Assembly (NCBI GenBank): GCA_951406725.2
Contig: OX597821.1
Location: 45,880,001-45,944,000, forward strand
Length of the DNA stretch: 64,000 nt
Reading direction: 5' to 3'
Source: Octopus vulgaris
Taxonomy: Eukaryota
In this document: positions 33,439 to 53,857 of the stretch, piece by piece
How positions within the stretch are numbered: the stretch's first letter is position 1
Layout of the letters: every line of letters begins with the position of its first letter
Made by a program: the position numbers and the translations under genes
The notes under the pieces: model-generated
Databases searched by the model: none
Told to the model about the DNA's origin: nothing
Seen by the model: only the letters and a program-made list of their open reading frames with translations

Positions 33439-33634
33439 TTTGTGTATCTATCCATGTATGTGTGCCTGTCTGTCCCTGTTTTGAATGAACAGATATACTT
33501 CTGTTCCGTGTAAAAATGTAAACCATGCTGGCAATATACACGATGCTACTTTACGTTGTATTGGAAAGTGTCCAGATGTAGGGCTTTGAAGTTTAAATTC
33601 TGTATTGATTTCTAACAATTTATTATTGGTACAC

Positions 33635-35135
33635 CTATCGTATTTTCACTCCACCCCTAGGGCATTTTCAAGTCAGCAATCCAACTGACTTCTTTACCAC
33701 TGCAGATATAAAATCAGAGGCAGCGATGATTGATTACTTCAATATAAATGAAGACGATGTAATAAAGGCTATAGATGAAATGAAAACAAACTCAGCTACT
33801 GGCCTCGATGGATTCCCAGCAATCCTTCTAAAAGTATGTAAGAGAGTCCTAGCAAGACCACTGCAGTTCCTCTTTCAGAGCTTCCTTGCAACTGGCAAAC
33901 TTCCAGGAAGGAAGGTAAAATATGCCCTATTCATAAAGGAGGTAGTAGAGCTGAGGCCAAGAACTACAGACCTATCTCTCTGACCTCACACATCAGCAAG
34001 GTCATGGAACGAATAGTCAGAAGGAAACTAATCACCTTCCTTGAAGAAAATGACTTGCTGCCTGACACCAAACATGGTTTCCGACCAGGAAGAAGCTGCT
34101 TAACTCAGCTCCTACAACACTATGACTGGGTGCTGAAACGACTGCTCAACCACTCAAATGTGGAAGTCATATATCTCAACTTTGCAAAGGCCTTTGATAA
34201 AGTCGATCATGGAATGATATGTCACAAACTGCGTGATCTTGGCATAGTTGGAAAATTAGGAGAATGACTTCATGACTTTCTGAAGGATAGAAGTCAGGTG
34301 GTAGCAGCCAATGGGGCCACTTCCATTAACACGCAAATAGTGAGCGGTGTTCCGCAAGGCACTGTTTTGGGACCACTATTGTTCATAATGGCCCTCTCAG
34401 ACATGCCCTCATCCACGCAGAGAGTCACGATTACAAGTTATGCAGATGATACAAAAGTTTCACAGGCAATACAGAACCCTGAAGACACTAAGCACCTGCA
34501 ATGTGAGCTGGACAAAATATACAAGTGGGCTGAAAAGAATAGCATGCAGTTCAATGCTGAAAAGTTTCAAGCTTTATGCTATCAGCATGCAAAACTAAAT
34601 GCAATACCCAATGAATACACTGGTCATGGAGGGATTGCAATCCTAGAGGCACAATCAGTGCGAGACCTGGGTATTTACATGAGTGATGATGCAACCTTTC
34701 ATGTGCATGTTGCTAAATTGGCAATGAAATGTAGGCGGCTGACCGGATGAATTCTTAGAACCTTTAGAACAAGAGACCAGGAATCCATGATGGTCCTCTG
34801 GAGGACACTTGTCCTAAGCCACTTTGACTATTGCTCTCAGCTATGGTCACCATCCAGTGTCAAGTTAATCACAGAACTTGAGGCGATCCAACGAAGCTAC
34901 ACGAAGAAGATAGCCTCTGTGCAGCATATAAGCTACTGGGAAAGACTCAAGAGATTAAGACTCTATTCCTTAGAGCGTAGGCGAGAAAGATATGCCATAA
35001 TATACATCTGGAAGATCCTAGAAGGACTTGTCTCAAACTTTGGCATCGAGAGTTACACAAATACCAGAACTGGGCGCCACTGCATAGTGCCAAGGACTCC
35101 AAATTTGCCATCAAGATGTAGGACAAGATACTGTG
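33635..35135 (+). mobile_element. CR1/L2-group LINE reverse transcriptase remnant (5'-truncated, frameshifted, with stops)
   Basis: Consecutive ORF fragments give GLDGFPAILLK, HGFRPGRSCLTQLL, NFAKAFDKVDH, SGVPQGTVLGPLLF, YADDTK, RDLGI and LYSLERRRERY. There are in-frame TGA stops at 34265 and 34748 and a frameshift near 33910. Confidence 0.92.
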
Positions 35136-35136
35136 A

Positions 35137-35172
<36 letters not shown>

Positions 35173-35407
35173 TGTATGTATGTATGTATGTATGTATGTA
35201 TGTATGTATGTATGTATAAAAAAATGATTATTCTGAAATACAATAATATCTGTTTCAACACACGACTTCACATCACGAATCCTGGAACACAAATTCATAT
35301 ATATGTGTGTGTGTATGCATTATCTCCCCCCTCTCTCTCTCCCTCTCTCTCTCTGTCTCTCTCTCTCGCTCTTTCTCTCTCTATATATATATACATATAT
35401 ATATACT

Positions 35408-39868: not shown

Positions 39869-40280
39869 TGTGTGTGTGTGTGCGTGTGCGTGTGTATGTG
39901 CGCGTCTGCGTTCGTAAGTGTGAGTACAACTGAATGTTAATCTGCCTCCATATGCATATATACATGTAATTATAACAGCATACTTTTACCTTTATAAATG
40001 TAGAGTTTTGTGATTAGTTTAAGTTAAAATATCAGTAATATTAATTATTGCAGACAGAAGTGATAAAATCAAGAAGTGATATAAATTTTTAGTGTCCAGC
40101 ATGAATAATATTCCTTAAGAGTGTCTCAGAAGGTTGGTGTATTAGAATATAGGTGGAAGATAAAAGCTAAATTCGTTTGAAATAACAGTCACTGAAATGT
40201 GTAACTATTAGTAAAATAGAAATGACCTTTCAAGCTTTGATAACTTAAAGTAACTTCGCATATTTTATTTTATTATCCAG

Positions 40281-40395
40281 AGATTGAAAATTACTATGTT
40301 GAAGCTACTGGTGAGGACTGTGGTGAAATGACTGATGAAAGAATAATATACACTGATGATGAACAATTTAGTGTCTCACTCGAACTCACACCGAA
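40281..40395 (+). CDS. BMI1: BMI1/PCGF4/Psc-like Polycomb RING finger protein, internal exon (phase 1 to phase 2)
   Basis: tattttattttattatccag acceptor and gtaag donor. Encodes IENYYVEATGEDCGEMTDERIIYTDDEQFSVSLELTP, which aligns with BMI1 [26 protein letters not shown]. Confidence 0.88.
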
Positions 40396-45884: not shown

Positions 45885-46706
45885 GGCGGTACACGATTGC
45901 ATGTACAGTGAGTTAGCAGTGACCTTCATGTGACAGTGTGCCGAGTTACGATGCTGGGTTTACTCTGCATGTTGTGGAATTTTTGATTTTGTGATCATGG
46001 AGAGGCAGTTGGAACAAAGAGTCAACGTGAAATTTTGCTTTAAACTTGAGAAATCTGCTATAGAGAAATTGAGAATGCTTACGGCAATGAGGCAATGGCG
46101 CGTACGCAATGTTTCGAGCGGCATGGGTGCTTCAGAAAGCACGATAGCACCGCAGCTCAATCAAGACCATGCTCAACGTTTTCTTTCGACATGTGCAGTA
46201 TTGTACACCGAAAATTCGTCCCCCAGGGCCAGACCGTCAGTCGAGAATTTTATCGCGACGTTTTATAGCGTTTGAGGGAGGACATTTGGCGAGAGCGACC
46301 GGATCTGTGGAGTGCGAAGAATTGGATTCTTCACGATGACAGTTTATCATACTACCGAGCTCTCCTCATTGGTGAGAGTCTCGCCAAAAACAACATGGCA
46401 TCGCTTCCGCACCCACCCTATTCGCCAGATTTAGCATCTGCGCGCTTCTATTTCTTACCCAACATGAAAATGTAGCTCAAAGGTCACCGCTTTACACCGT
46501 TGTCGAGATTAAGGGCGAATCGTGGAAGGTCTTTGACTGGCTGACAGAAAACAACTTCAAGGCCGGATTCCAAAAGTGGCAGGAACGCTGGGAGCGGTGT
46601 ACTGGTGGCAAGGTGATTATCTCGAAAGAGATGATGTTAAAATTTAGGTAAATAAGTTATTTTTTATCAAACATAGCTAGTCCGGGAACTTTTTGATACC
46701 ACCTCG
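45885..46706 (+). mobile_element. Mariner transposon remnant (5' TIR missing, internal deletion)
   Basis: Contains EQRVNVKFCFKLEKSA and WILHDD...LPHPPYSPDLA (mariner YSPDL motif). The 3' TIR is gaactttttgataccacctcg followed by TA. Confidence 0.88.
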
Positions 46707-47717: not shown

Positions 47718-48908
47718 TTCTGTTTGCCAAAATGTCCGTTCGCTTTTTGTCAACAGTAAACTTCATGCACTCTAATAGGAAGCTACCTTTAGCTTGTTCC
47801 TTGCGCAATCGCAGTCGTTAGATATTTGACACTTTCAAGTAGTTCGACGCTACAGATTGCTTTCATGTGCTTAGAATCACCCTGAGAAAGGAGAACCAAA
47901 ACAAATATTATCAACACCTCAGGCATTTTATTTCTAAAATGGCAAGAAAGCGGTGGAAACATTCAAGTATATACAGAGAGGATGCTGTTACAGAATGTGT
48001 GTGCCAAAAATGGGTTTCAAGATTTCACTGGGGAAATTTTTCAGTTCAAGATGCACCTTGCTCTGACAGGACAAGAAAGATTAACAACGGCAAAATGAGG
48101 ATCTTAATCGAGACCAACCCCAGTTATTCGACCAAGATGATCGCAAATACTCTGCAAATATACAAAAAGCGACTGTTGAAAGCCATCTGCACCAACTAGA
48201 TTAGGTCAGCAGGCTCGATATTCGTGTTCTACATCAATTGAATGAGGCTAACCTCATTTGCAGAAACGTGAGGAAGACGATCCTTTTTTGAAGAGGATAG
48301 GAACAGGAAAAAAAGGGATCGTCCATAACAATGTGAAGTGCAAACAATCATGGAGAAGGTGCGGCGTGTAAGCACAAACAGCCTCCAAAGACTTCATCTG
48401 AAGAAGGTTATACTTTCTCTTTGGTGGGATTGGAAGGGTGTTGTTTTTTATGAGCTTCTCACTGACAGGACCATCAATTTGGATGTGTACTGTGACCAAC
48501 TGGCCAAATTAAACGCGGTAATCCACCAGAGAGTCCAGGACTTGCTAGTCGTAAGAGTATCGTCTTTAGCACAACAATGCCAGATCACACACTTGTTTGC
48601 AGACGCGGCAGAAGTTCCTAGAGCTTTGCTGGGAAGTTCTATCTTCATACTCGCCCGGCTCTATACCATCAGAGTCTGCCTGTTTCGGTCGCTTCAGAAT
48701 TTGTTGATAGGACAGAGCTTCAACTCTGAAGAAGATGTAAGTATTATAAAAAGGAAATTCTTTGAGCTGGAAATAATGGATCTACTCACAAGATGGCAGA
48801 AAATGCAGGAACGAAACGATAATTGAATCATTTATCGAATACATCGTTTTGTGATAAAAATTTGTCTTTTATTTTTGCTTAAAAAATCGAACTTTTTGGC
48901 GAACCCAA
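47718..48908 (+). mobile_element. Mariner transposon, near full length, pseudogenised
   Basis: Contains YREDAVTECVCQKWVSRFHWGNFSVQDAPCSDR (GRP-like motif), KKVILSLWWDWKGVVFYELL and TINLDVYCDQLAKL. Degenerate TIRs ttctgtttgccaaaatgtccg / cgaactttttggcgaacccaa with TA flanks. Confidence 0.88.
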
Positions 48909-49511: not shown

Positions 49512-49592
49512 ATTGAAATTTATCACACAGATGAGCCTCTTGTTGACAATTACACATTAATAGACATCGCTTATATTTACATGTGGAAAAGG
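49512..49592 (+). CDS. BMI1: BMI1/PCGF4/Psc-like, RAWUL domain exon (81 nt)
   Basis: ctttcttttctacgcttag acceptor and gtaagt donor. Encodes [27 protein letters not shown] versus BMI1 [27 protein letters not shown]. Confidence 0.95.
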
Positions 49593-50056
49593 GTAAGTGA
49601 TTTTTCAGTGTTGTATTTATCTAGCAAGTCCCTTGATATGAGATCGTAATATAAAGCTGAAGCAATTACAACGTGGATAGGCTACACAAAATCTGTTACA
49701 TTCAGTTTCATTTATTTCTTGAGGTTTCAACATTTTCGTCGCTCTTCTATGACATGGTCACTGACATAACTCCACTACAAGCTGGTTAAATAATTCATTT
49801 AACTTAGAACAGTAGTATAAATGACCTGGTCACAGAAGTTTAATAAAAGATTTGATACTTCAAGAAATTAGCAAGAAGTGAATGCATCGAGTTTTGTATA
49901 ATTTTAAATAACTAAAATGCCTCTTTCAACAAATAAGTTTATTGTATTGCATTTTTACTTTCATTCTCGATTTCTCTGAATTATACTTAATTTACTATTC
50001 CTATAACTGTTATCCATTTATTCACAAATTATTTAATTTTTTTTTTCTATTACCAG

Positions 50057-53000
50057 AAAGGTCCACTTCGATTATTTTATTCAGTTTCATATGAACCAAT
50101 TAAGAAACGAAAAATAGAAATGGTAACAAATTTAAATGAAGAAGTGTCTGTTCCTGAATGCTGTAAAGGCATAGATGAAACCATTCACAAATCAGTCACA
50201 TTCGCTGAATTAAATCATGAAGAAGAAAATATTCAAAACAATACTTCAGAGACAATAAATCCTCCTAAGGGAGAATCAGTATCACCTCTACCATTGTTAC
50301 CTGCTTCTTCTCAATATTTACCGCAAACGATGCCAAAAATCCCAGAAGCAAATTCTTTAGAGACTGTGGTAAATGAATCAACTAAAAGTATATTGCCGAG
50401 CATAAATGAACACACCCAGCAGGATCTATCAGTGGAGATGCAACCAGACTCTACTAGAAACTGTGAACAGATAGTATCAGGGCATATTCCACAAGATTCT
50501 CCAAGACACATTGAACAGGATTCACTGGAACATCTTCAGCAAGATTTAGTTGAAGACATGCAAGAAGATTCACCTGAAAATGTGCCTCAGCATTCATGTG
50601 AACATGTGCAAGATCAGACACCAGAAGACATCCAGCAAGAATCTCCTGAAACTATCCAACGCGAGACTTCTGAACACATGCAAGAAGACTCTCCTGAACA
50701 GATCCAGCATGACTCCCTGGAACAGCCTCAACAAGATTCTTCTGAACACATCCGACAAAGCTCTCCTGAACATATCCAACAAAGCTCTCCTGAACACACC
50801 CAGCAAAACTCTCCAGAACACATTCATCAAGATACTCCTGAACACATCCAAGAAAACTCTCCTGAACACACCCAAGAAAACTCTCTTGAACACATCCAAC
50901 AAGATACACCTGAACACATCCAACAAGACACACCTGAACACATCCAACAAGACACTCCAGAACATATCCAAGAAAACGCTTCTAAACACATCCAACAAGA
51001 CACTCCTGAACACATCCAACAAAGCACTCCTGAACACATCCAACAGGACACTCCTGAACACATCCAAGAAGGAACTCCTGAACACATCCAGCAAGATTCT
51101 CCTGAACCGACTCAACCAGATTTACCTGGCCATATCCAACAAAACTCACCTGAACACATCCCACAAGTCTTAACTGAAGACGTCCAACCACATTTACCTG
51201 AACACATCCAGCAAAACTCTCCTGAACACATTCTACGAGAAAACTCCGAGCAAGAATTATCTGAAGACATTCAGCAAGGGATAACAGAACAAACCCAGCA
51301 AGAAATACAAGAAACCATGCAACAAAGCTCTCCTGAGTCTATACAGCAAGATACACGTAACAAGGTACAGCAAGACTCACTAGAACAGTCACCCAAAGAT
51401 TCCTTAGAGCACACGCAACAAGATTTACCAGATCACATACACGAAGATGCATCTAAACCTAACGTACAAGATTCTTCAGAACATATCCCAACAGTTTCCC
51501 CTGAACACGTCCATCAGATTCCCCATGGAGCAATCCAACACAACCCACTACAATCACAAGACACACCAAAAAGCATGCAACAAAATTCACCTGATACTAT
51601 TCATGAAAATTCTTTGGAGGCTGTTCACCAAGACTCACCTGTACCAATTCAACAAGATTCACCTGCGACAATTCAGCAAAACTTGCCTGTTCCCAAACAA
51701 ATTGACTCGTCTCAAGGTTTTCAGCAATGTGTACCTGAAACTGCTCAGCAAAAGACTGTTCAGCCCATTGAATCAAAACCTTCTCAGTATATAGAACCAG
51801 CGTCACCTTATACCAAAGAAAAGATGCAACAGGAATGTCCATTGCTCATGCAACAAAAGTCAGTACAACATATGAAGCTTTCTCCACGACAACATTTAGA
51901 ACAGGATTTACCTCAACACTTCGATGAAAAATCATACCAACATTTTCAACATGAATCACCTCATAAAATACAAGAAAATTCTCAACCGGTTCAACAATTA
52001 CTATGTCACAACATGCAGCAAAGATCGCCTCTAAAGGTGAAAAAAGAATCACCAAGACTTGTACAAGCAAAATCACCTCAGCATATTCAACAAATATCCT
52101 CCCATCATATGCAATTAGAGTCAGCTCATCATTTGCAATGGGACTCTCCACAAAGCTTGCCACGAGATTTACCACAACAGCTGCAAAGAGTATCACCAAA
52201 ACGTTTTGAGCAGACAACTTCTCGACACTTACAACAGTCATCCCCCAGAAATATACGGCAATCACCTCCAGGGCATTTACAACAAACTTCTCCAAGACAT
52301 GTTCAACAAATGTCTCCCAAACATGTACAACAATCATCACCCAGACACATACAACAGTCATCTCCTAGACATATGCAACAATCTTCACCAAAACACATGC
52401 AGTCATCTACTAGACATATAAAACAATCATCTCCCAGACATGTCCAGCAGACATCTCCCAGACATGTGCAACAGTCATCTCCAAGACATATGCACCAGTC
52501 ATCTACTAGATTCTTGCAGCAATCCTCAACATGTTTGCAGCAAGCATCTCCCAAGCACCAAGAACAGATATCTCCCAAGTTCTTACAGCATGCATCCCCC
52601 CAGCAACTACAGCCAGCATCCCCTCAACAATCTCCTATGCCATCACCCGACCAGAGTCCAGTCGCGTCACCTGATCAATTGTTTCTGCAACCAAATGATA
52701 AAATGCTTGTTCATTCATCTGAAAAATTGTCCATATCCTCCCCTGATCAGCTGTGTATGCCTTCCACACACCTATCACCAGTTCGATCCCCACACCTTTC
52801 ACCTTTGCCTGCTTCGCTTCCTACTCCGTTGCCGACTGTACAAGAACGAAACCAGGAGCATCAAAGCAGGGCATCTTCACGAAAGAACAGTAAACTCTCA
52901 AAACAATGCCATATAAATGAAACAATGCAAGTGACGCCAACGACTGTTCCTTTAACATCACACCAAACATCTACAAATCTAAAAAACCTATCTCTACCAC

Positions 53001-53857
53001 CACTGATGCCTCTTGTTTCAAAACCCTTGCCAAAGCCTACATTAATTCGAGTACCACCAGTTCATGTACCACAACCTCAGTTAGTGAAATCACAAAGAAC
53101 AGCTGAACAAAAACTAAAGCAACAATATCGATCAAGAATAGTGCAACCGACAGACCATCTTTGTGAACACCAGAAAAGTCTTTTGGAAAGACAAGAAGAA
53201 TTACAAAAAGAATATATGAAAACACAAGAAAAAGAACAAGTAATGGAACAGCTGCAACACCATCACCAGCAACATCAACACAATTTACATCAACATAAGC
53301 AGCAACGCAAGCAATCACATCAGAAACAACATTACCAGCAACACCAAGAACAAGAATTCAAACATAGGCAGCAATATATACACAACCAGCATCAACATCA
53401 ACACCAACATTGTCACATGATGAAGCAATCTTTACATCATGGAGAGAGGTGCCAACAACACTGTAAAGAGCAAATGAAATCGATGTCTTCAAATAGAAAT
53501 GGTTCACCTTATAAGTTCTATCCTGAGCAAACAGAACCACTTTCATTGAAAATTGAAGTTAAAGGCAAAGAATTCTGCAGTGGTCACAAAAGTAATGGCA
53601 AGGCGCCTAAATTATCTGAAAAAATTGTCCCTTCTTGCAACGTGAATGGCAGCAGATGTTGCATATCATGTAAAAATGAAACTCATTGTGTATCTAACAT
53701 GATGAATCCTTTATCAAATCATACTGTAACTAAATTCTTAGTTACAGGCCCAATCTATACTCCACTAAATTTAATAAATGGACAGATTGAAGATAGTGCG
53801 CCATTAAATCTGAAAAAAGAACCAGAAAAAACAACAAAACAGCCACAGCAGACATGA
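50057..53857 (+). CDS. BMI1: BMI1/PCGF4/Psc-like, terminal exon: end of RAWUL, NLS, and ~1250-aa repetitive low-complexity C-terminal region
   Basis: ttttttctattaccag acceptor. The first 21 codons [21 protein letters not shown] (BMI1 NGPLPLKYRVRPTCKRMKI) run in frame into the 1245-aa ORF at 50120. Stop TGA at 53855-53857. Confidence 0.93.
   Translation, partial: [1266 protein letters not shown]
50480..52680 (+). repeat. Coding 24-bp (8-aa) degenerate tandem repeat
   Basis: Unit cctgaacacatccaacaagacact (PEHIQQDT) is best preserved at about 50690-51240. Unit cccagacatgtccagcagacatct (PRHVQQTS) is best preserved at about 52210-52620. Confidence 0.9.

What the first reader, a model, noticed from the sequence alone, without database searches (positions are those of the whole stretch)
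50480..52680. Polycomb tail made of an octapeptide repeat that switches from acidic to basic
Seen: on the order of 90 degenerate 8-aa units, estimated as length divided by 24 bp. The N-terminal block is [S/T]PEHIQQD (acidic) and the C-terminal block is SP[R/K]H[V/I/M]QQS (basic), in the same register with near-constant His and S/T-P. Established: Psc-type chromatin compaction depends on positive charge in a disordered tail, SPxx/SPKK-type repeats bind DNA, and S/T-P sites are proline-directed kinase targets. Inference: a block polyampholyte in which the acidic block could mask the basic DNA-binding block, tunable by multisite phosphorylation and by His protonation or metal binding, like a CTD-style code on PRC1. 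I do not recognise this repeat from any described PCGF.
Basis: partly seen in the sequence, partly recalled or inferred. Interest (0 to 1): 0.75.

Follow-up and report, generated by a model that had tools for sequence, protein, structure and literature searches.

The report
Acid-then-basic repeat tail on octopus Polycomb
An octopus gene-silencing (Polycomb) gene is spliced to a 1,266-amino-acid tail, missing from its public annotation, in which one eight-residue unit runs first as a long acidic block and then as a short basic block; many invertebrate relatives share that acid-then-basic order, and it likely lets the tail damp its own DNA binding.

Summary
The repeat is real and lies in the last exon (50057-53857, 1,266 aa) of a RING-RAWUL PCGF2/4 (Psc/BMI1) gene. 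Assembled contigs from four studies splice into it in frame; the NCBI model (276 aa) uses an acceptor 4 nt downstream and misses the tail. There are 86 octamer slots with six register slips: 52 acidic units (net -77), 19 degenerate neutral ones and about 17 basic ones (+16). The whole tail is net -46, so it does not look like a positively charged PSC-type compactor, and SPKK or CTD-like features are not met. The acid-then-basic order is not unique: 30 of 33 other long PCGF2/4 tails (12 of 14 lineage groups) share it, and 11 of 62 tails carry repeats of their own, while only 2 of 119 unrelated octamer arrays switch charge. The octopus tail is the most extreme case. It is one of three neighbouring paralogues and has a fast-evolving core. 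Best reading: a lineage-specific 24-bp expansion exaggerating a shared charge layout, with the acidic block likely acting as an internal polyanion that damps DNA binding; untested.

The parts
40280..40393 (+). Coding exon between RING and RAWUL (P0001 residues 144-181; edges approximate)
   Evidence: exact match to P0001
44114..44161 (+). Short coding exon (P0001 183-198; edges approximate)
   Evidence: exact match to P0001
45367..45465 (+). RAWUL exon, first half
   Evidence: Pfam PF16207 E 2.9e-7; AG/GT ends; its 3' end is joined to 49512 in contigs of 3 of 4 runs (loose ends)
49512..49592 (+). RAWUL exon, second half
   Evidence: Pfam PF16207 E 3.1e-5; donor used in 4 of 4 runs
50057..53857 (+). 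Last exon: end of RAWUL plus tail, 1,266 aa, net charge -46, stop at 53855-53857
   Evidence: open frame; GT..AG joint skipping 464 nt in 4 of 4 runs and single contigs across the whole exon; charge
50061..50117 (+). Out-of-frame end used by the NCBI model P0001 (acceptor 4 nt downstream, stop after 18 aa)
   Evidence: this joint was seen in 0 of 4 runs
50402..51682 (+). Acidic block, 52 octamer units, consensus SPEHIQQD, net -77
51683..52192 (+). Degenerate neutral middle, 19 slots, net +2
52193..52594 (+). Basic block, 15 octamers plus two 7-mers, consensus SPRHIQQS, net +16, 13 S/T-P
52595..52834 (+). Ser-Pro-rich linker (11 S/T-P in 80 aa)
52835..53854 (+). Non-repetitive distal tail, net +20, with a His/Gln-rich tract and three P-L-x-L motifs near the end

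Best explanation
This is the spliced, in-frame tail of an octopus Psc/BMI1-type Polycomb subunit, in which a local 24-bp tandem expansion has built an extreme form of the acid-then-basic layout common in long invertebrate PCGF2/4 tails, and the acidic block likely works as an internal polyanion that damps DNA binding by the basic half. Shown: gene identity, splicing, block charges, shared layout. Inferred: the tail is disordered; the acidic block (-77) folds back on the distal half (+36 in all, of which the basic repeats give +16), so this paralogue would be a weak or normally-off chromatin compactor; phosphorylation of the one S-P per basic unit would cancel its one K/R and reinforce the off state, whereas dephosphorylation, His protonation or a basic partner taking up the acidic block would open it. 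The peptide of the basic units appears selected; the acidic block appears selected for bulk charge and length only.
For: Splice 49592 to 50057 in 4 of 4 runs from 4 studies, intron uncovered in 3 of 4. Strongest acidic segment precedes strongest basic one in 30 of 33 other tails of 450 aa or more; proximal third more acidic than the rest in 13 of 15 lineage groups counting the octopus; only 2 of 119 unrelated period-8 arrays hold both a -6 and a +6 window. Charge decoration z -27, the most negative of 34 tails. Unit-against-unit dN/dS 0.11 in the basic core (synonymous sites near saturation) and 0.46 in the acidic core. In the more distant organism E, listed changes are 10 synonymous of 12 distal to the repeats and 4 of 11 in the acidic block (Fisher p 0.036). 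The fly PSC tail makes contacts within itself (bioRxiv 2020.06.02.130492, abstract and two sections read) and is hypothesised to be off by default and controlled by phosphorylation or polyanions (PMC10821450, Discussion read).
Against: No binding or compaction data, and no peptide evidence that the tail is translated. The runs are only guessed to be RNA, though an intron is removed. Homologous tails are related and are the best 120 of 252 hits; 2 of 15 groups run the other way and four others differ by 0.064 or less per residue apart from clam_B. The basic block is weak (+0.12 per residue, one SPKK-type site), so there may be little DNA binding to mask. The acidic block varies freely (a whole unit missing in organism B; 9 coding differences in its 5' contig against 0 in the 3' one), which also fits a plain spacer. 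Organism E data are low-depth fragments, 40 of 82 variant rows were shown, block order was not bridged, and two contigs there show single frame-shifting indels at 52911 and 53019. Orthology to the long bivalve tails is unresolved.
Confidence: 0.45

Rival explanations
1. The acidic block is a loosely constrained spacer grown by slippage; only the basic repeats and the distal tail matter, and no masking occurs.
For: Higher dN/dS among acidic units (0.46); whole-unit loss and most variation fall in the acidic half; repeats arise often in these tails (11 of 62); the charge switch needs only positions 3 and 8 to change.
Against: A charge switch is rare in unrelated octamer arrays (2 of 119) yet matches the order seen in most long PCGF2/4 tails; E is kept at position 3 in 38 of 52 acidic units.
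Confidence: 0.28
2. The acidic block acts in trans: it binds histones or the basic region of another PRC1 subunit, as a histone-chaperone-like arm next to the ubiquitin ligase core.
For: It sits directly behind RAWUL and has more charge than the tail's own basic half can neutralise (-77 against +36); one CBX-type exon in this genome is net basic with an AT-hook-like motif. That long acidic stretches bind histones is recalled general knowledge.
Against: Charge density is modest (-0.18 per residue) and the block has no aromatic residue; no partner was tested.
Confidence: 0.14
3. The array is a CTD-like docking platform whose S/T-P phospho-pattern recruits readers such as Pin1 or Polo-box proteins.
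For: 62 S/T-P sites in the tail, 13 in the basic block, six as S-S/T-P (the Polo-box motif is recalled); basic peptide conserved; the fly tail is heavily phosphorylated (PMC10821450, Discussion).
Against: S/T-P in only 43 of 86 slots, six register slips, only 1 full S/T-P-x-K/R site in the basic block and none in the acidic one; no such unit in any of 62 other tails.
Confidence: 0.09
4. The tail is mostly untranslated and the protein ends 18 residues into the exon, as the NCBI model has it.
For: P0001 is annotated so; no long orthologue was found in three protein searches.
Against: 4 of 4 runs use the in-frame acceptor; it restores the conserved end of RAWUL seen in both paralogues; a 3.8-kb open frame with an excess of synonymous change.
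Confidence: 0.04

Closest known systems
Drosophila Posterior sex combs C-terminal region (PSC-CTR)
   Same: RING-RAWUL core followed by a tail of similar length (about 1,150 aa in the fly per bioRxiv 2020.06.02.130492, Introduction; 1,266 aa here), many S/T-P sites, gene lying in a cluster of paralogues (the Psc/Su(z)2 pairing is recalled).
   Different: The octopus tail is net -46 with a 427-aa acidic block and is built of one octamer; the fly tail binds DNA through lysine-rich patches. The fly sequence was not among my hits, so its charge profile was not computed here.
Long-tailed PCGF2/4 proteins of bivalves, annelids and brachiopods (for example Mercenaria P0081, Mya P0031, Owenia P0120)
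   Same: Tails of 800-1,230 aa with a proximal acidic and a distal basic segment.
   Different: Their acidic segments are weaker (-28 to -72 against -89) and non-periodic; no sequence similarity to the octopus tail; orthology unresolved.
Repeat-bearing PCGF2/4 tails of Batillaria (13-mer, basic, S-P-K), horseshoe crabs (8-, 9-, 18-mers), Saccostrea (7-mer), Patella (6-mer)
   Same: Tandem peptide repeats, several with S/T-P, grown independently in the tail.
   Different: Different units, shorter arrays; none reaches lag identity 0.25 over the whole tail.
SPKK motifs of histone H1 and sperm histones; RNA polymerase II CTD (both recalled)
   Same: Repeated S-P followed by a basic residue; many proline-directed sites.
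   Different: Unit has one basic residue followed by His, not two; repeat is degenerate, slipped and variable in number.

Membership tests
PCGF2/4 (Psc/BMI1/MEL18) | N-terminal C3HC4 RING | tested here: met
   P0001 carries PF00097/PF13923; its RING exons map upstream on the same contig
PCGF2/4 (Psc/BMI1/MEL18) | RAWUL domain after the RING | tested here: met
   two exons hit PF16207; PF16207 precomputed on P0001
PCGF2/4 (Psc/BMI1/MEL18) | Closer to BMI1/Psc/PCGF2 than to PCGF1/3/5/6 | tested here: inconclusive
   named hits among the best 120 include BMI1, Psc and PCGF2 but no PCGF1/3/5/6 (only proteins over 483 aa were searched); it nests among mollusc and annelid members on a long branch, but the tree had no PCGF1/3/5/6 rows
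PCGF2/4 (Psc/BMI1/MEL18) | Basic nucleosome-contact residues at BMI1 62 and 64 | tested here: met
   K and K in P0001; role of K62 and R64 from a passage of PMC6771824
PCGF2/4 (Psc/BMI1/MEL18) | K73 and D77 near the ligase active site (typical, not strictly defining) | tested here: not met
   N and N in P0001, 1 of 113 scored proteins; D77 kept in 106 of 113
PCGF2/4 (Psc/BMI1/MEL18) | Assembles with RING1, Polyhomeotic and CBX | not tested
   RING1-like and two CBX-type loci exist in the genome; binding not examined
Chromatin-compacting PSC-CTR | Long disordered tail | tested here: inconclusive
   composition fits (27 aromatic residues in 1,266); single-sequence AlphaFold2 mean pLDDT 40, which cannot prove disorder
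Chromatin-compacting PSC-CTR | No extended negatively charged stretch; net positive charge (criteria recalled from Beh 2012 and Grau 2011, neither held) | tested here: not met
   net -46; negative run of 425 aa; largest acidic segment of 48 tails of 300 aa or more
Chromatin-compacting PSC-CTR | Tight DNA binding, inhibition of remodelling, compaction | not testable with these tools
   needs biochemistry
SPKK DNA-binding repeats | Tandem S/T-P-K/R-K/R (recalled) | tested here: not met
   1 match in the tail; 12 S/T-P-K/R with one basic residue in the basic block
Pol II CTD-like phospho-code | Strict consensus in unbroken register, conserved across species (recalled) | tested here: not met
   six slips, 43 of 86 slots with S/T-P, unit loss in a relative, no such unit in 62 other tails
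Pol II CTD-like phospho-code | Patterned phosphorylation read by partners | not testable with these tools
   needs phosphoproteomics

The most novel reading that the evidence does not exclude
Acid-then-basic charge order is a conserved autoinhibitory switch of long invertebrate Psc-type tails, kept without sequence similarity, and octopus paralogue A has rebuilt it from a single octapeptide; with both K73 and D77 replaced, it is a specialised PRC1 subunit whose chromatin grip is off by default and set in steps by unit number, phosphorylation and pH.
Probability: 0.2. Interest if true: 0.75.

Novelty: new variant of a known kind. Interest (0 to 1): 0.5.

Why it matters
How a poorly conserved disordered tail encodes Polycomb chromatin compaction, and what keeps it off, is an open question; a recent paper proposes control by phosphorylation or polyanions. 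This tail offers a natural modular reagent: one peptide unit in acidic and basic versions, so that charge, block order and copy number can be changed separately. It also corrects a public gene model that drops about 82% of the protein, and shows a three-gene Psc cluster in octopus whose tails differ sharply in charge (-48, +25, +2 as trimmed).

Tried and rejected
Word-seeded search with the tail: 4,599 candidates, none significant. Full HMMER scan: 295 hits, best 150 listed, best-scoring stretches all in the repeat region; 27 scanned by Pfam had no RING or RAWUL and 9 of 10 looked up were named as unrelated proteins of bacteria, amphioxus, crustaceans, a springtail and algae, one had no name, so no cephalopod orthologue of the tail was available as protein. 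Pfam hits of the tail (Fibrinogen_BP, DUF2345, Cornifin, Gp5_trimer_C) are treated as composition and period-8 effects. AlphaFold2 on 731 aa of repeats without alignment gave pLDDT 40 and no solenoid; no fold search was run on it. RNA editing: A>G at 51326 and 51359 also stand in DNA-type runs of related organisms, so I read them as alleles; 52903 and 53407 were seen in one run only. The unit is not a dispersed satellite: best matches are in this exon, other loci reach E 5.5e-9 at 26% identity at best. No RNA holder was on record as RNA; kinds are guesses. The protein atlas gave no answer. Beh 2012, Grau 2011 and Taherbhoy 2015 could not be read; their criteria are recalled. Supplements were not opened. 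No complex prediction or polymer simulation was run.

Full report
Observation. The finding lies in one open frame, 49991-53857. Identity at lag 8 is 0.42 inside it, against at most 0.13 off-period and 0.10-0.12 in the flanks. The array has three parts: 52 acidic units (427 aa, 11 K/R, 88 D/E), 19 degenerate neutral slots (18/16) and 15 basic octamers plus two 7-mers (134 aa, 18/2). The two consensus units differ at positions 3 (E to R) and 8 (D to S) and at 8 of 24 nt, and each block finds the other as its best non-self match in the genome, so both descend from one unit. His at position 4 (47 of 86) and S/T-P (43 of 86) are near-constant only in the cores.

Gene. Two upstream exons hit RAWUL. 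The only protein found with the first of them is P0001, named by NCBI as BMI-1-like of Octopus vulgaris; it matches five stretches of the window exactly and its RING exons lie further upstream on the same contig. P0001 ends 18 residues into the last exon because it uses an acceptor 4 nt downstream. Contigs of 4 of 4 runs from 4 studies instead skip 464 nt (GT..AG) from 49592 to 50057, in frame, and one contig per run covers the whole exon; the intron is uncovered in three runs and at depth 4 in one. The tool only guesses these runs are RNA, contigs drop rare isoforms, and translation is not shown. The in-frame end of RAWUL matches that of both paralogues.

Relatives. A DNA-type run of organism B has the whole exon, lacks exactly 24 nt at 50848, and has 9 coding differences in its 5' contig and none in the 3' one; organism D is near-identical. 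In the more distant organism E, low-depth fragments cover the acidic block (18 of 151 and 24 of about 250 nt differ), the middle (12 of 169) and the basic block (8 of 184). Block order is not bridged there, 40 of 82 variant rows were shown, and two contigs each show a frame-shifting indel distal to the repeats (52911, 53019) at depth about 3. Of the listed E changes, 4 of 11 in the acidic block and 10 of 12 distal ones are synonymous. Between units, dN/dS is 0.46 in the acidic core and 0.11 in the basic core, where synonymous sites are near saturation and the estimate is rough. The basic peptide therefore looks old and held by selection; the acidic block looks younger and looser.

Family context. 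The genome has three PCGF2/4-type genes within about 1 Mb of contig C8; the other two have last exons of about 350 and 290 aa with tails of net +25 and +2. Octopus sinensis P0003 has the same tail figures as the second, and Argonauta has proteins that fit both by tail figures and core motif. The core of this gene sits on a long branch (0.96) in an open fork (60 rows, no PCGF1/3/5/6). It has N/N where BMI1 has K73/D77 (1 of 113; 8 proteins lacked the anchor motif, among them paralogue C orthologues with Q/N). A passage in PMC6771824 says these residues orient ubiquitin and that mutation lowers activity; my recollection of the primary paper is that their loss relieves autoinhibition. The direction is unsettled here.

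Charge layout. Of 252 longer homologues the best 120 were fetched; 62 have tails of 150 aa or more, 47 of 300 or more, 33 of 450 or more; the rest, mostly vertebrate read-through forms, were dropped as too short. None of the 47 has an acidic segment as large as the octopus (-89) or whole-tail periodicity of 0.25, but 13 are net negative. In 30 of 33 the strongest acidic segment precedes the strongest basic one; by hand-drawn lineage groups the proximal third is more acidic in 13 of 15 including the octopus, with Patella and a partial Solemya protein reversed and the arthropod groups weak. Seventeen of 33 have charge decoration z below -4; the octopus has -27. As a control, 2 of 119 unrelated period-8 arrays drawn from the 150 hits contain both a -6 and a +6 window; these arrays are often shorter and were selected by likeness to the query, so the contrast is indicative only. 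Local tandem repeats occur in 11 of 62 PCGF tails, with other units. So the unit is new, repeats in such tails are recurrent, and the charge order is shared.

Mechanism. The tail is net -46. By the criteria I recall from Beh 2012 (reference seen, text not held) an extended acidic stretch marks PSC tails with weak activity, so this paralogue is predicted to be a poor constitutive compactor. The simplest use of a proximal -77 block and a distal +36 half is intramolecular screening. The fly tail makes internal contacts and compacts on DNA (bioRxiv 2020.06.02.130492: abstract, Introduction, model section and passages read), and Seif and colleagues' paper PMC10821450 hypothesises a default-off state relieved or imposed by phosphorylation or polyanions (Discussion and passages read). 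Here full S/T-P phosphorylation would move the basic block from +16 to -10 and the acidic block to -131, while full His protonation would move the whole tail to +53. These are bounds, not physiological states. SPKK and CTD features are not met. All of this is inference from sequence.

Literature. Ten searches of the held library found no paper on cephalopod PCGF; octopus + PCGF + PRC1 gave 0. The cephalopod epigenetics paper PMC9476566 has no mention of Polycomb, PCGF, BMI1 or PRC1 but reports H3K27me3 (passages); the Polycomb evolution paper PMC10638273 has no mention of octopus or molluscs in its main text (passages). PMC8760139 (passages) gave only background. Subscription papers and supplements were not seen and may hold such data. 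The scan's own index had nothing on this gene; two notes on other genes of this genome with large repeat tails are unchecked leads for the drift rival.

Verdict. Real, expressed as a spliced transcript, unannotated and unusual in degree; a new variant of the long Psc-type tail rather than a new system. Interest 0.5.

Noticed in passing
G000:C8:45.73-46.72 Mb (L001, L002, L010-L016, L020, L022): Three PCGF2/4-type genes within about 1 Mb, the second and third convergent, with unrelated tails of net -48, +25 and +2. Several bivalves also have two hits on contigs of equal length, so the cluster may be old.
   Followed up: partly
P0001 residues equivalent to BMI1 73 and 77: Both residues are Asn (1 of 113 scored homologues); paralogue C orthologues also have Asn at 77. 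May change ligase activity.
   Followed up: partly
window 50057-50061: Two acceptors 4 nt apart; the NCBI model takes the out-of-frame one and loses 1,266 aa. If used in vivo it would give a tail-less isoform; not seen in four runs.
   Followed up: yes
window 53530-53820: Three P-L-x-L motifs at the end of the tail; several homologous tails end in P-L-D-L-S/T motifs. Likeness to CtBP-binding PxDLS motifs is recalled, not tested.
   Followed up: no
L028 (C29) and L029 (C9): Two CBX-type last exons: one net +10 with an AT-hook-like motif, one net -56 with Asp/Glu, Asn and His tracts.
   Followed up: no
window 53260-53460: His/Gln-rich tract; PMC10821450 mentions His runs as polyphosphate binders, but runs here are shorter than five.
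   Followed up: no
P0123 (Branchiostoma) and P0135: Unrelated proteins with octapeptide arrays: one drifts from acidic to near-neutral His/Arg units; one is a SAND/PHD/bromodomain chromatin protein with about 45 His-containing octamers.
   Followed up: no
window 33609-35227, 45934-46475, 47843-48826: Broken reverse-transcriptase-like and mariner-transposase-like frames in the introns of the gene (likeness recalled, not scanned).
   Followed up: no
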